Source: Candidatus Levybacteria bacterium RIFCSPLOWO2_12_FULL_41_12 (lineage in GTDB: Bacteria; Patescibacteriota; Microgenomatia; Levybacterales; UBA12049). Taken from it: a stretch of 64,000 nt of DNA. The stretch spans positions 34,012 through 98,011 of the forward strand of contig MFPL01000002.1 in assembly GCA_001784155.1 (NCBI GenBank). The letters are read 5' to 3'. This document shows positions 54,638 to 57,248 of this stretch, one piece after another. The notes beneath the pieces were generated by a model, which worked only from the letters and a program-made list of their open reading frames with translations, was not told the origin of the DNA and ran no database searches. How positions within the stretch are numbered: the stretch's first letter is position 1; each line of letters begins with the position of its first letter. The position numbers and the translations under genes were made by a program.

Positions 54638-55648
54638 TCAACCTTGAAGCAATTTTATTGCTTGGCCTGTTTTGTAACTTTTCGCGTGTTTTAAATAACC
54701 AAGATATGACTGGATAGTCTGATTTAGCGAAAAATCAGAGATTCTCCCTGTTTTGTATTCATCAAGCTTATCTGATATCTTTCTAAACATCCTTTTCTTT
54801 GTTTTTGTTCTTGGCAAAACGTAGTGGGGAAGTATGACGTAACCTAAAAAATCAACTCCCCATGAAAGTCTTCTCATAATAATCTTGCCTGGATTAAGTC
54901 TCAGCTTAAGATTTTCTTCCAAGAAGACTGGTATACTAGTATACCAGTCTAATAATCTACTCCTATTGGATTCTAAAATTAAAAAGTCATCAGCGTAACG
55001 CAGGTAATATTTCACTCTTAGACTCTGCTTTATAAATTGGTCCAGTTCGTTTAAGTAAATATTTGCAAAAATCTGACTTGTCAGATTGCCAAGAGGAATT
55101 CCTTTCCCTCTTCCTTGTTCCACGCTAAAACTTTGAATAACTTCTTTTAAAAGCCAGAGAATATCTTCATCTTCTATTCTCTTTTTTAGAAGTTCGAACA
55201 AAATCTTATGATCAACATTTGCAAAGAATTTTTTAATATCAAGTTTTAGAGCAAAGCAGTTTCTTGTATAATTCTTGCTCACTTTTCTCGCAAATAACTC
55301 AAGCCTTTCAACTCCTTTATGCGTTCCTTTATCTAAACGACAAGAATATGAATCATAAATAAAACTTTTATCAAAGACAGAATATAAATATTTATATAAA
55401 AGGTGATGTAAAACCCTATCCGAAACACAGGCTTTATGGATGTGCCGTCTTTTCGGATCGTTAACGAAGAATTCCTCGTATTTTCCATGTTGGTAAGTTT
55501 TGTTTTTCAAAGACAAGTGCAGAGAGAACAAATTGTCTTCCAAATTCCGCTCGAAAACTTGTAAATCCAATCTCTTCTTCTTTCCTTTTTTAAATTCAGA
55601 AAAGGCTTGAAAAAGATTTTCTATTTGTATAAGATCTTCATAGTTCAT
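54638..55648 (-). CDS. DGR-type reverse transcriptase
   Basis: Start at ATG 55648 (MNYEDLIQ...). Motifs DSYSCRLDKGTHKG (DGR-like SxxxRxxKGTH), GIPLGNLTSQIFANIYLNELD (LGNLTSQ replaces the usual QG...SP, a DGR hallmark), and YADDFLIL (YxDD). The listed 373-aa ORF start is an artefact of reading through the upstream (CA)n tract. Confidence 0.9.
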   Translation of the reverse strand: MNYEDLIQIENLFQAFSEFKKGKKKRLDLQVFERNLEDNLFSLHLSLKNKTYQHGKYEEFFVNDPKRRHIHKACVSDRVLHHLLYKYLYSVFDKSFIYDSYSCRLDKGTHKGVERLELFARKVSKNYTRNCFALKLDIKKFFANVDHKILFELLKKRIEDEDILWLLKEVIQSFSVEQGRGKGIPLGNLTSQIFANIYLNELDQFIKQSLRVKYYLRYADDFLILESNRSRLLDWYTSIPVFLEENLKLRLNPGKIIMRRLSWGVDFLGYVILPHYVLPRTKTKKRMFRKISDKLDEYKTGRISDFSLNQTIQSYLGYLKHAKSYKTGQAIKLLQG

Positions 55649-55672
55649 ATGAGTAACATCAATAAACCTGTT

Positions 55673-55698
55673 CACACACACACACATACACACACACC
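55673..55698. repeat. Dinucleotide microsatellite (CA)7-TA-(CA)5, 25 nt upstream of the RT start
   Basis: Direct reading: cacacacacacacatacacacacacc. It lies between TR and RT, flanked by the GC-rich inverted repeat GCCCGCC...GGCGGGC at 55711-55747. Confidence 0.8.
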
Positions 55699-55737
55699 GA
55701 TAGTAATTTAGCCCGCCTGCCAGCACCTGACCGCAGG

Positions 55738-56088
55738 GATGGCGGGCAGGATATCCCAATCTTTACCAAGCTCTACGAATTTTATAAAACGCTTAGCTCA
55801 ATTATTCCATCTTTCCCTAAGACAAAACGCTACACGCTAGGTCAAAAGTTGGATAACACAACCTTGGACATACTCGAATTCTTGTTTGCAATACCGTTAA
55901 GCAGTAATAAGCTGATTATCCTTCAAAAAATAAGCGTAAAAGTCGATTTATTAAAAATTCTAATCCGTCTCTCTAAAGACACCCAGATAATTAATAACAA
56001 AGACTGCTTAGAGCTTGAAACAAAACTTTCTGAAATAGGCAAAATGCTTGGAGGATGGATCAGAGCCTCCAAGCAAAATACCACTTAA
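55738..56088 (+). CDS. Avd-like (accessory variability determinant, four-helix-bundle) protein encoded antisense to the DGR, with no canonical in-frame start
   Basis: C-terminus LSEIGKMLGGWIRASKQ closely parallels BPP-1 Avd's AEVGRILGSWIARVNRK. Upstream block IPSFPKTKRYTLGQKL resembles the PF05635-family N-terminal region. The open frame extends to 55738 with no ATG/GTG. The nearest ATG (55739) is in a different frame, and the track's TTG at 55849 would truncate the fold. Confidence 0.55.
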   Translation, partial: DGGQDIPIFTKLYEFYKTLSSIIPSFPKTKRYTLGQKLDNTTLDILEFLFAIPLSSNKLIILQKISVKVDLLKILIRLSKDTQIINNKDCLELETKLSEIGKMLGGWIRASKQNTT

Positions 56089-56104: not shown

Positions 56105-56220
56105 GAAACTATCAAGCGAACCGCATGAACATTGTCATTGCCGTTATCAGGCTTAAAGTCATTGACATTCAAACCGTTATCGGGATTCGCATTGCCGACA
56201 ATCGCAGCATTAGAACCCAC
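56105..56220 (-). repeat. DGR template repeat (TR)
   Basis: Core 56113-56217 matches VR 56547-56651 at 85/105 positions. TR coding (minus) strand is adenine-rich with AAC codons (translates GSNAAIVGNANPDNGLNVNDFKPDNGNDNVHAVRLIV). Shared 3' IMH-like end GCGGTTCGCTTG. Confidence 0.88.
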
Positions 56221-56519
56221 ATTTTGTGCATATCCCTTCGTTAACAGAACCTCACCAAAGATTTCTGTAAAGATCTCTTTTGAATTTTATCCGTCTCGCC
56301 AAAAACGGCGGAGCGAAAAAAGATATACGTAGTGTCTAGTAAATTTTTCTTTAAGTACTCTCCCTCACTATGTATAGTGAGGGACTCTGACTATTGAAAG
56401 ATCCTAGAAATAGGCGGTACGGCTTAAATCAAACCGGACTCATTGCGCTATTGCGAATAATTGTAGCAAAAAAATCGGAGAACCAAAATACAAGAAGTCC
56501 AAAATTACCAAGAGGACAA

Positions 56520-57248
56520 CTACTTATTTCCGTGGTTAGGCACTACCAAGCGAACCGCAAGAACACCGCCACCGCCGCCACCAGGCCCAAAGCCACGGAC
56601 ATCCAAACCGTCATCGGGATGCGCACGGCCGACAACCGCAGCATTAGAACCGGATTTAGTCGTTGGATTTTTTGTTCTTCCGTACCGATAGCCGTAATCT
56701 GGTCCAAATAACCATTCTCCTGTTTGATCTAAATAGTCAAAAGTAATTCCTGTAAGAGTCGATGCCTCGTTTGGAATTCTAACATCTACTCCAGATAATC
56801 CTAATCTTTCTCTTAAAGTCTCTCCGTCTCTACTGACCATCCTCTCCTGCGTAGCTAAATCTTTACCGCCTGTGCCGGGAATAAAGAATCTGTCCGGATC
56901 GGGATAAATTGCTACTTCAGCAAGACTTGAAGGGACATTAAGAAGTCCGTCTTCCGCATTAGCAACAAAATAAAACGAGGGTTTTTCTTTTTGTCTTTGG
57001 GCTTCTCTTTGTGAGGGAATAGTCTGATCGAGGGGCTTTAAAATAATTGCCCCGTCTTTTGATAAAGCGCGCTTTTCTACGGCAGTAAACTTATCGGCTT
57101 TCCCAACCTGTTCACGTCTTGGAAGAGGGACATCTTTCCCTCTAGCTTTATGCATTGCAGCAATTACATCCGCTCTTTCTGCGTCGCGGGGATCGTTTGT
57201 TACTCTAAGTTTTCTTTCGACCCATTCCATTCCCATATGAACGAACAA
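56520..57248 (-). CDS. DGR target protein (variable C-terminal ligand-binding domain, probable C-type-lectin/FGE-like fold)
   Basis: C-terminus ...GSNAAVVGRAHPDDGLDVRGFGPGGGGGGVLAVRLVVPNHGNK is the VR-encoded region. It ends with the xVRLVx-like segment typical of CLec-fold DGR targets. No obvious signal peptide. Confidence 0.8.
   Translation of the reverse strand: MFVHMGMEWVERKLRVTNDPRDAERADVIAAMHKARGKDVPLPRREQVGKADKFTAVEKRALSKDGAIILKPLDQTIPSQREAQRQKEKPSFYFVANAEDGLLNVPSSLAEVAIYPDPDRFFIPGTGGKDLATQERMVSRDGETLRERLGLSGVDVRIPNEASTLTGITFDYLDQTGEWLFGPDYGYRYGRTKNPTTKSGSNAAVVGRAHPDDGLDVRGFGPGGGGGGVLAVRLVVPNHGNK
56540..56655 (-). repeat. DGR variable repeat (VR) at the 3' end of the target gene
   Basis: Of the 20 mismatches to TR, 16 are A-to-G, 3 are A-to-C and 1 is A-to-T on the coding strand. 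Six TR adenines are unchanged. No non-adenine position differs within the 105-bp core. Confidence 0.88.

What the first reader, a model, noticed from the sequence alone, without database searches (positions are those of the whole stretch)
55649..55760. (CA)n microsatellite and GC-rich inverted repeat immediately upstream of the DGR reverse transcriptase
A dinucleotide tract (CA)7-TA-(CA)5 sits at 55673-55698, 25 nt upstream of the RT ATG. In RNA sense this is (GT)n (minus strand). It lies between TR and RT on the presumed DGR transcript. It is followed by a GC-rich inverted repeat GCCCGCCTGCC...GGCGGGCAGG at 55711-55750, unusual in this AT-rich genome. Dinucleotide repeats of this length undergo slipped-strand length changes. 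This one could act as a phase-variation switch on RT expression, or be part of the structured spacer RNA DGR RTs use for priming.
Basis: seen in the sequence. Interest (0 to 1): 0.5.

Follow-up and report, generated by a model that had tools for sequence, protein, structure and literature searches.

The report
Repeat-length switch on a DGR accessory gene
The (CA)n tract is a hypermutable repeat at the start of avd, the helper gene of a diversity-generating retroelement. Its length varies between otherwise identical genomes and puts avd in or out of frame, so it probably works as a heritable on/off switch for targeted protein hypermutation.

Summary
A bAvd gene lies on the plus strand, back-to-back with the RT (CATATG at 55646-55651). 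The (CA)n tract sits in its first 20 codons.

Eighteen contigs of this Levybacteria population carry (CA)6, 7, 8 or 9. Over 11-13 kb they otherwise differ almost only in the DGR variable repeat. Six or nine units give an intact 145/147-aa Avd reading the tract as His-Thr repeats. Seven (this window) or eight units stop after about 20 codons, with no other canonical start before the conserved four-helix core.

The same position in related CPR DGRs carries (CA)4-18, (AG)12, poly-C8-12 or (CAGGA)9, never a 3n unit. Same-species protein clusters again hold length variants and truncated calls. A more distant clade has (AG)n inside the RT gene instead.

Best reading: a slipped-strand contingency switch on Avd, and so on DGR activity. 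An effect on RT expression is not excluded.

The GC-rich inverted repeat is a real imperfect hairpin. It is a 39-nt in-frame insert in Avd's disordered tail, and its role is unresolved.

No report of this was found in the library searched.

The parts
55673..55697 (+). Simple sequence repeat (CA)7-TA-(CA)4-C. Only the 5' sub-tract varies: 6, 7, 8 or 9 units in the population. It is codons 9-17 of avd in the ON frame (HTHTHTYTHT).
55649..55711 (+). Start of avd as it stands in this window (OFF allele). ATG 55649, then 20 codons (MSNINKPVHTHTHTHTPIVI), then stop TAG at 55709-55711. With 6, 9 or 12 CA units the same ATG reads through to the avd stop at 56088.
55750..56088 (+). Conserved bAvd core, from the DIPIF motif to the stop. 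Predicted four-helix bundle. In this window it has no in-frame ATG/GTG/TTG until TTG 55849.
55711..55749 (+). 39-nt GC-rich in-frame insert encoding ARLPAPDRRDGGQ. It forms the imperfect hairpin 55712-55750. It is absent from most homologous avd genes and present in L006 and L090.
55699..55711 (+). GATAGTAATTTAG directly after the repeat. It supplies stop codons in both OFF frames: TAG-TAA at 55701-55706 and TAG at 55709-55711. The ATAG core is conserved across species but read in different frames.
54638..55648 (-). DGR reverse transcriptase, 336 aa. Its ATG lies back-to-back with the avd ATG (CATATG).
55685..55687 (-). Minus-strand ATG created by the TA interruption of the repeat. It is in frame with RT only in the (CA)7 allele, where it adds 13 aa and matches NCBI's 349-aa call. 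In (CA)6 and (CA)9 it opens a short upstream ORF that ends before the RT ATG.
55607..55635 (+). Promoter-like site TTGAAA-17-TAAGAT, ending 13 nt before the avd ATG. It would give a very short leader. The match is not statistically significant.
56108..56217 (-). Template repeat (TR) core.
56542..56651 (-). Variable repeat (VR) at the 3' end of the target gene. All 21 differences from TR lie at TR adenines.
56520..57236 (-). DGR target gene, 238 aa, no Pfam match. There are 22 sequence variants in its 90% cluster.

Best explanation
The (CA)n tract is a slipped-strand contingency repeat in the 5' coding region of avd. Avd is the accessory protein that DGR reverse transcriptases need for mutagenic cDNA synthesis.

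avd is transcribed divergently from RT. Its ATG (55649) abuts the RT ATG. The repeat encodes a His-Thr stretch in a disordered N-terminal tail. Because the unit is 2 nt, gaining or losing units changes the frame. With n = 6, 9 or 12, full-length Avd is made (ON). With n = 7 or 8, translation stops at TAG/TAA codons placed right after the repeat, and no other canonical start can produce the four-helix core (OFF).

This window carries the OFF allele (CA)7.

OFF cells would keep their current variable-repeat sequence. ON cells would keep diversifying the target protein. The switch is heritable and reversible, so the population hedges between exploring and fixing receptor variants.

Shown: the repeat, its polymorphism, its effect on the frame, the Avd identity, and recent DGR activity.
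Inferred: that ATG 55649 is the start that is used, that OFF alleles lack functional Avd, that Avd is essential here as it is in Bordetella phage BPP-1, and that the arrangement is selected.
For: 1. An identical RT is found on contigs that differ in the 200 nt around the tract only by CA units.

2. The 18 contigs of the species carry (CA)6 x3, (CA)7 x7, (CA)8 x1 and (CA)9 x7.

3. Over 11-13 kb, the window and L001-L003 differ only in the VR (16 substitutions, all at TR adenines), the 4-nt repeat indel, and 0-2 SNPs.

4. One VR haplotype occurs with 6, 7 and 9 units. Another occurs with 7 and 9. The tract therefore changes at least as fast as the VR.

5. In-silico alleles n = 6, 9 and 12 give a 145, 147 or 149-aa Avd. 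All other n give peptides of 16-24 aa.

6. Gene callers annotate the 147-aa form on 34 contigs and the 145-aa form on 3. They call only a 68-aa stump on 6 contigs of NCBI MAGs.

7. In the OFF window there is no in-frame ATG/GTG/TTG between the repeat and TTG 55849.

8. Avd identity: Pfam bAvd 3.9e-17. The AF2 model has four helices at pLDDT about 97 and a tail (residues 1-35) below 50. Foldseek matches 4DWL bAvd at TM 0.87-0.90 (normalised to the target) and the 8UB7 DGR RNP.

9. Recurrence: 31 of 80 species-level CPR loci have an SSR in the 120 nt before the DIPIF codons. The types are (CA)4-18, (AG)12, C8-12 (in several loci directly after the ATG) and (CAGGA)9. Unit lengths are 1, 2 or 5, never 3n. 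Density there is 16-fold higher than elsewhere in the same loci, p = 1e-25.

10. About 60% of 120 Avd cluster representatives start with (HT)2 or more, and about 12% with PPP.

11. In five other 90% clusters the full-length members differ only by HT, ER or P units (139/141/143, 132/134, 147/149, 123/127 aa). They coexist with truncated calls, for example a 90-aa form on 37 contigs. A cluster without an SSR has 8 members, all 128 aa.

12. A more distant clade without the avd SSR carries (AG)4-35 inside the RT ORF, just before the GIPIGN motif. Nine of 12 are frame-shifted at the repeat. One species has both an intact 329-aa RT and a 198-aa form truncated at the repeat.

13. avd nonsense mutations abolish retrohoming in the reconstituted BPP-1 DGR (PMC12875486).
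Against: - Among species-level reference genomes, only about one third of SSR-bearing loci are in frame (about 10-11 of 31). That is also what is expected if the frame were irrelevant.
- No experimental or read-level data show switching within a clone.
- No data show which start codon is used, or whether OFF alleles lack Avd. Non-AUG initiation, transcriptional slippage or ribosomal frameshifting on the repeat could leak Avd.
- There is no Shine-Dalgarno sequence before ATG 55649, and the promoter-like site is not significant.
- Contigs from one aquifer are not independent samples.
- Some DGRs work without Avd (Wu et al., PMC5758913).
Confidence: 0.65

Rival explanations
1. The repeat tunes RT expression. 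Length changes would alter the RT 5' UTR or promoter geometry, or the relation of the upstream minus-strand ATG (55687) to the RT frame. On this reading the avd frame effect is secondary or additional.
For: - The tract lies 24 nt upstream of the RT ATG. In all related loci the SSR lies 20-60 nt upstream of the divergent RT start.
- The TA interruption makes an ATG that is in frame with RT only at n = 7. At n = 6 or 9 it opens a 10-11 codon upstream ORF.
- NCBI called a 349-aa RT from that ATG.
Against: - No promoter-like site on the minus strand spans the repeat.
- The 13-aa extension is not conserved. RT homologues align from residues 1-3.
- This idea does not explain why the units are never 3n, or why an open ATG always precedes the SSR on the avd strand.
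- It does not explain why another clade puts the SSR inside the RT ORF.
- Nothing excludes a combined effect.
Confidence: 0.15
2. The repeat is a neutral mutational hotspot. It sits in a dispensable, disordered leader, and functional Avd is made regardless, through a non-canonical start near DIPIF, a leaderless transcript, or polymerase or ribosome slippage. Length variation would then have no phenotypic consequence.
For: - Roughly one third of reference loci are in frame, as expected by chance.
- Residues 1-35 are predicted disordered.
- More distant homologues start only 3-5 codons before DIPIF.
- One related cluster has a 113-aa call that begins at LDIPIF.
Against: - In the window and most OFF loci there is no ATG/GTG/TTG between the SSR and the core.
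- Long perfect tracts, including C10-12 in AT-rich genomes, persist at this one site with a 16-fold enrichment. They recur with different units.
- The parallel (AG)n inside the RT ORF cannot be non-coding.
Confidence: 0.12
3. The tract is kept for the His-Thr peptide it encodes, for example for metal or nucleic-acid binding, and not for its mutability.
For: An HTHT motif is found in about 60% of related Avd N-termini.
Against: - The same site carries ER, PPP or GQDRT repeats in relatives, encoded by (AG)n, poly-C and (CAGGA)n.
- The codons are perfect CACACA, not mixed synonymous codons.
- Out-of-frame alleles are common.
- The segment is predicted disordered.
Confidence: 0.04
4. The length differences are assembly or sequencing artefacts.
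For: Repeats are error-prone in assemblies, and the data are metagenomic consensus contigs.
Against: - Each main allele recurs in several independent assemblies, assemblers and archives, including JGI, ENA MEGAHIT, the ANAN16 scaffolds and NCBI MAGs.
- Short (CA)6-9 tracts are well within Illumina accuracy.
- The flanks are identical.
Confidence: 0.02

Closest known systems
Translational SSR phase variation of bacterial contingency genes. Examples are the CT dinucleotide repeat in the 5' coding region of Helicobacter pylori oipA, poly-G tracts in Campylobacter jejuni, and CTCTT in Neisseria opa (own knowledge; reviewed in PMC11868660 and PMC3315296).
   Same: A repeat with a non-3n unit sits just after the start codon. 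Slipped-strand length changes toggle an intact versus a truncated ORF. The repeat is polymorphic among near-identical genomes.
   Different: The gated gene is not a surface antigen or modification enzyme. It is a component of a targeted hypermutation machine. The host is an uncultured CPR bacterium from groundwater, not a host-adapted pathogen. Switching rate and phenotype have not been measured.
Phasevarions: phase-variable DNA methyltransferases (PMC5909438, PMC7383803).
   Same: An SSR in one enzyme or regulator gene switches a whole downstream programme, not a single structural product.
   Different: The output here would be the presence or absence of continuing sequence diversification of a target protein. 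It is not a change in methylation or transcription.
Bordetella phage BPP-1 DGR (avd-TR-brt), with the Avd pentamer (PDB 4DWL, 8UB7).
   Same: An RT, a TR/VR pair with adenine-specific changes, and a basic four-helix Avd (pI 9.5; TM 0.87-0.90 to 4DWL).
   Different: The architecture is TR-(avd)-RT with avd inverted, which is type B3 and typical of CPR (PMC5758913). Avd has a 35-residue disordered N-terminal tail carrying the SSR. No SSR is known in BPP-1 avd.
The (TA)n repeat in the divergent hifA/hifB promoters of Haemophilus influenzae (own knowledge).
   Same: A dinucleotide repeat lies between two divergently transcribed genes of one system.
   Different: In hif the repeat sets the -35/-10 spacing, a transcriptional effect. 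Here it is inside an ORF and sets the reading frame. A promoter role is untested.
Contingency loci in phages (bioRxiv 2025.10.21.683753 / PMC12633550).
   Same: Hypermutable tracts cause reversible frameshifts outside classical pathogens.
   Different: This is a different host and different genes. By full-text term count, that paper does not mention DGRs.

Membership tests
Diversity-generating retroelement (DGR) | Reverse transcriptase of the DGR type | tested here: met
   RVT_1 5.6e-22. The translation shows GIPLGNLTSQ and YADD motifs. Homologues sit in DGR cassettes.
Diversity-generating retroelement (DGR) | TR/VR pair whose differences fall at template adenines | tested here: met
   In the 110-nt core, all 21 mismatches are at TR adenines. 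Eight VR haplotypes show at most one non-A difference.
Diversity-generating retroelement (DGR) | VR at the 3' end of a target ORF | tested here: met
   VR 56542-56651 lies within the last 45 codons of the 238-aa ORF 56520-57236.
Diversity-generating retroelement (DGR) | Avd accessory protein | tested here: met
   Pfam bAvd 3.9e-17. AF2 four-helix bundle. Foldseek match to 4DWL and 8UB7. pI 9.5.
Diversity-generating retroelement (DGR) | IMH and downstream hairpin at the VR 3' end | not tested
   A perfect 11-bp inverted repeat at 56359-56385 lies about 135 nt beyond the target stop codon. It was not analysed.
SSR-mediated translational phase variation (contingency locus) | Repeat with a non-3n unit inside the 5' part of an ORF | tested here: met
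   (CA)n occupies codons 9-17 of avd. Relatives carry units of 1, 2 or 5 nt.
SSR-mediated translational phase variation (contingency locus) | Length polymorphism among otherwise near-identical genomes | tested here: met
   Alleles of 6, 7, 8 and 9 units in 18 contigs. The flanks are identical, and 11-13 kb differ only in the VR and the SSR.
SSR-mediated translational phase variation (contingency locus) | Length change converts an intact ORF to a truncated one and back | tested here: met
   In-silico translation of n = 4-13. Gene calls of 147/145 aa versus 68 aa or none.
SSR-mediated translational phase variation (contingency locus) | High-frequency, reversible switching within a lineage | tested here: inconclusive
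   The same VR haplotype occurs with 6, 7 and 9 units, which argues for repeated change. There is no read-level or culture data and no rate estimate.
SSR-mediated translational phase variation (contingency locus) | Phenotype follows the repeat state (Avd protein, DGR activity) | not testable with these tools
   This needs reporters, a reconstituted DGR, or linked-read population data.
DGR spacer (Sp) priming RNA | Structured RNA immediately 3' of TR on the TR strand | tested here: not met
   The repeat and hairpin start about 350-430 nt beyond the TR 3' end, with the antisense avd ORF in between. The minus-strand fold is not better than shuffles (z -1.4 for the hairpin, z +1.1 for 122 nt).
Promoter-spacer SSR (transcriptional phase variation) | Repeat lies between the -35 and -10 elements of a promoter | tested here: inconclusive
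   The consensus scan finds no site spanning the repeat on either strand. CPR promoters are poorly known.

The most novel reading that the evidence does not exclude
Candidate Phyla Radiation bacteria may gate their diversity-generating retroelements with slipped-strand contingency repeats placed in the machinery genes themselves. In Microgenomates-type cassettes the repeat is in avd, with (CA)n, (AG)n, poly-C and (CAGGA)n arising repeatedly at the same site. In Parcubacteria-type cassettes it is (AG)n inside the RT. This would be a two-tier mutational system in which a stochastic, heritable switch turns targeted protein hypermutation on and off. Lineages could then freeze a useful receptor variant or resume searching.
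Probability: 0.5. Interest if true: 0.85.

Novelty: new variant of a known kind. Interest (0 to 1): 0.72.

Why it matters
How DGR activity is controlled in nature is an open question. A 2026 reconstitution study says so explicitly (PMC12875486).

If the repeat gates Avd, and (AG)n gates RT in other clades, DGR hypermutation in a huge uncultured radiation would be under a simple, sequence-readable on/off switch.

That would make activity states inferable directly from metagenomes by repeat length modulo 3. It would explain why many CPR DGR genes look 'broken' in reference genomes. It would also give a testable model for how cells avoid over-diversifying a useful variant.

There is a practical point for annotation. 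Truncated or missing avd and RT calls at these repeats are probably phase states, not pseudogenes.

Tried and rejected
- Exact-flank pattern scan of JGI metagenome contigs returned a single extra contig. Allele counts therefore had to come from protein look-ups of VR variants.
- Rfam: only a sub-threshold RT-16 match beside TR (28.6 bits against a gathering score of 50). Nothing reached gathering level in the DGR region of the window or of 10 related loci.
- Promoter and terminator scan: two promoter-like sites against 2.4 expected, no terminators, and nothing on the minus strand at the repeat. It gives only a hint of an avd promoter.
- Hairpin conservation: the three lineages with the insert (window, L090, L006) share the outer stem. 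The inner stem is re-registered in L090 and the fold is weak in L006. That is too few sequences for covariation, and no copy of the element was found elsewhere in the window beyond chance.
- I first supposed avd started at ATG 55739 with a missing G. I rejected this once the (CA)9 contigs showed the ORF opening at ATG 55649.
- The 373-aa RT ORF is rejected.
- Paul et al. 2017 (PMC5436926), the main survey of CPR DGRs, is not held. I could not check whether it mentions these repeats.
- Seven full-text searches found no paper linking SSRs or phase variation to avd or to DGR RTs.

Full report
**What is in the sequence**

The region is a diversity-generating retroelement (DGR) in a chromosomal context. 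The neighbours are ftsE/ftsX, a PcsB-like peptidase, prfB and tsaE. The organism is a Candidatus Levybacteria bacterium of the CPR/Microgenomates group, from groundwater.

On the minus strand lie:
- a 238-aa target gene (56520-57236) ending in the variable repeat VR (56542-56651);
- the template repeat TR (56108-56217);
- a 336-aa reverse transcriptase (54638-55648; RVT_1 5.6e-22).

All 21 TR/VR differences in the 110-nt core are at TR adenines.

Between TR and RT, on the plus strand, lies a bAvd-like ORF (Pfam 3.9e-17). This inverted-avd layout, TR-(avd)-RT, is the 'B3' architecture. Wu et al. report it for 90% of CPR DGRs (PMC5758913).

**Checking the observation**

- The dinucleotide tract is (CA)7-TA-(CA)4-C at 55673-55697. 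It is the only long dinucleotide repeat in the window. None of 200 Markov simulations reached 7 units.
- The GC-rich element at 55711-55750 folds into an imperfect hairpin. On the plus strand it gives -25.3 kcal/mol, z -3.7. On the minus strand z is -1.4.

**The key result**

The Avd reading frame in this window has no ATG, GTG or TTG before TTG 55849. Yet the Pfam match and the homologues require a start near 55740-55750 or upstream.

Looking up contigs that encode the identical RT resolved this. L001-L003 carry a called 147-aa bAvd gene that starts at the ATG directly abutting the RT ATG (CATATG). L004 has no avd call.

An alignment of 200 nt shows one difference only: (CA)9 in L001-L003 against (CA)7 in the window and L004.

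With (CA)9 the ORF reads MSNINKPVHTHTHTYTHTDSNLARLPAPDRRDGGQDIPIF.... With (CA)7 it ends after 20 codons at TAG 55709-55711. The tract is therefore coding on the plus strand, not an untranslated spacer, and its length sets the avd frame.

**Population data**

I used the Avd variants and the VR variants of the target protein as handles and collected 18 contigs of this species. The alleles are:

| Allele | Contigs | avd frame |
|---|---|---|
| (CA)6 | 3 | in frame, 145 aa |
| (CA)7 | 7 | out of frame |
| (CA)8 | 1 | out of frame, the other frame |
| (CA)9 | 7 | in frame, 147 aa |

- Only the long 5' sub-tract varies.
- Over 11-13 kb, the window differs from L001-L003 only by 16 VR substitutions (all at TR adenines), the 4-nt repeat indel, and 0-2 SNPs.
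- Eight VR haplotypes were seen. One occurs with 6, 7 and 9 units and another with 7 and 9.
- The repeat and the VR are thus the two hypervariable spots on a clonal background. The repeat changes at least as fast as the VR.
- In the protein database the 147-aa form is on 34 contigs. NCBI MAGs with the OFF allele carry a 68-aa stump.

**Is ATG 55649 the real start?**

This is inferred, not shown. Points in favour:
- It is the only canonical start that can reach the core.
- In every SSR-bearing relative, an ATG with an open frame precedes the repeat.
- In several poly-C loci (L019, L023, L027) the tract follows the ATG directly (ATGCCCCCCCCC).
- A promoter-like TTGAAA-17-TAAGAT ends 13 nt upstream, which would suggest a near-leaderless mRNA. 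The match is not significant.
- Both OFF frames hit stops immediately after the repeat, inside the conserved GATAGTAATTTAG.

The AF2 model of the ON protein has residues 1-35 at pLDDT below 50 and four helices (39-144) at about 97. It matches Bordetella Avd (4DWL, TM 0.87-0.90) and the DGR RNP 8UB7. The repeat-encoded peptide and the hairpin-encoded peptide therefore lie in a disordered tail that can tolerate length change.

**Relatives**

A scan of one genome per species with an Avd alignment gave 80 loci. Nearly all are CPR, with RT and avd back-to-back.

- In the 120 nt before the DIPIF codons, 31 loci have an SSR: (CA)4-18, (AG)12, poly-C8-12 or (CAGGA)9.
- The remainder have none and start 3-5 codons before DIPIF. 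Most of these are below 47% identity to the query.
- SSR density at this site is 16-fold higher than in the rest of the loci (p = 1e-25). Most of the 'rest' are A8 or T8 runs.
- No unit length is a multiple of three.
- Of 120 Avd cluster representatives, about 60% begin with (HT)2 or more and about 12% with PPP.

Within five other 90%-identity clusters, full-length members differ only by HT, ER or P units (139/141/143, 132/134, 147/149, 123/127 aa). They coexist with truncated calls, for example a 90-aa form on 37 contigs. A cluster whose avd lacks an SSR has eight members, all 128 aa.

Different repeat chemistries at one site, all frame-shifting and all polymorphic, argue for selection on mutability and not on the peptide.

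**A parallel in RT**

Loci without the avd SSR often carry (AG)4-35 inside the RT ORF at about nt 530, just before the conserved GIPIGN motif.

- In 9 of 12 the two halves of RT are in different frames exactly at the repeat. In 3 they are in frame.
- One species has both an intact 329-aa RT and a 198-aa form truncated right after QRERERE.
- In the 80 loci scanned, no cassette carries both switches.
- A repeat in the middle of an enzyme ORF cannot be dismissed as non-coding. This supports the idea that CPR DGR machinery genes are gated by contingency repeats.

**How it most likely works**

Slipped-strand mispairing changes the CA number. With n = 0 mod 3, Avd is made. Otherwise a peptide of about 20 aa is made and the four-helix core is not translated.

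Avd is needed for cDNA synthesis and retrohoming in BPP-1. avd nonsense mutants drop to about 1e-9 (PMC12875486). OFF cells should therefore keep their VR, and ON cells should keep diversifying it. This window is OFF and carries a VR haplotype seen on no other contig.

The dependence on Avd in this organism, the start codon, the absence of leaky expression, and any fitness benefit are all inferences.

**Caveats and rivals**

- Only about one third of species-level loci are in frame. Free switching predicts this, and so does irrelevance of the frame.
- An effect on RT cannot be excluded. The tract is 24 nt upstream of the RT ATG. The TA interruption creates a minus-strand ATG that is in frame with RT only at n = 7, and opens a short upstream ORF at n = 6 or 9.
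- A neutral hotspot with alternative initiation, a peptide function for the HT stretch, and assembly artefacts are each argued against under rival explanations.

**The GC-rich hairpin**

It is a 39-nt in-frame insert encoding ARLPAPDRRDGGQ, placed between ...DSNL and DIPIF. Most homologues lack it.

- It is retained with the same outer stem in L090 (z -2.5 and -3.2), though the inner stem is re-registered. It is weak in L006.
- L024 has an unrelated GC-rich hairpin at the same place.
- It begins directly after the OFF-frame stop codons.
- My best guess, at low confidence, is a nucleic-acid-level hairpin tolerated because it lies in tail-coding sequence. It might influence mRNA stability, re-initiation or local replication slippage. 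Three sequences are too few to test covariation.
- It is not a terminator, because no T-run follows it on either strand. It is not placed where a DGR priming spacer would be.

**Novelty**

SSR phase variation and DGRs are each well known. Seven full-text searches found no paper connecting SSRs or phase variation with avd or DGR RT genes. I rate this as a new variant of a known kind: a contingency switch placed on a targeted hypermutation machine.

Noticed in passing
L029, L033, L037, L041, L049, L054, L056, L070, L072, L073, L079, L080: about 530 nt into the RT gene: (AG)4-35 repeats lie inside the RT ORF, just before the GIPIGN motif, in CPR DGRs that lack the avd repeat. Nine of 12 are frame-shifted exactly at the repeat. 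One species has both an intact 329-aa RT (P0173) and a 198-aa form truncated at the repeat (P0198).
   Followed up: partly
L038, L047, L050, L051, L063 (about 60-120 nt beyond the RT stop); L046: Tetranucleotide repeats, (ATAG)8, (GTTG)10, (GGAT)5, (GATG)8 and (TGGA)8, and (GA)7 in L046, lie just downstream of RT. In L047, L050 and L051 (possibly L063) they sit next to what looks like the ATG of an opposite-strand ORF. This may be another repeat-gated gene beside the cassette.
   Followed up: no
window 55685-55687 (minus strand): The TA interruption of the repeat makes an ATG on the RT strand. It is in frame with RT only in the (CA)7 allele, which matches NCBI's 349-aa RT call in L089. In (CA)6 and (CA)9 it starts a 10-11 codon upstream ORF that ends at a TGA before the RT ATG. 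avd-OFF and avd-ON alleles therefore also differ in the RT leader.
   Followed up: partly
window 55699-55711 and the equivalent site in L007, L011, L012, L013, L016, L020: The motif CC(G/T)ATAG(T/C)A after the repeat is conserved at nucleotide level but read in different frames in different species (TDS, TPIV, AYS). In the window it supplies stop codons for both OFF frames. Why it is conserved is not settled.
   Followed up: partly
window 56359-56385: A perfect 11-bp inverted repeat, TCCCTCACTAT-GT-ATAGTGAGGGA, lies between the target-gene stop and TR. It could be a terminator or the DGR target-recognition hairpin.
   Followed up: no
window 56228-56330 (minus strand): A sub-threshold Rfam match to RT-16 RNA (RF03019, 28.6 bits against a gathering score of 50, E 0.18) lies directly upstream of TR. 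No gathering-level match was found in the window or in 10 related loci.
   Followed up: partly
window 56542-56651 and the same region in L001-L100: Eight VR haplotypes occur among 14 contigs of one otherwise clonal population. All differ from TR at adenines only, with at most one exception. The window's haplotype is unique, and the target-protein cluster has 22 variants. This is direct evidence of recent DGR activity.
   Followed up: yes
window 55607-55635 (plus strand): The promoter-like TTGAAA-17-TAAGAT is embedded in the codons of the conserved RT N-terminal motif (NLFQAF) on the other strand. It is conserved in relatives, but that conservation is confounded by the coding constraint.
   Followed up: no
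protein P0123 (read-level assembly SRR3990167), maps to window about 55739-56088: A 103-aa variant starts at the out-of-frame ATG 55739 (MAGRISQSLPSSTNF) and joins the avd frame at TKRYTLGQ. This implies a deletion allele inside avd in some reads.
   Followed up: no
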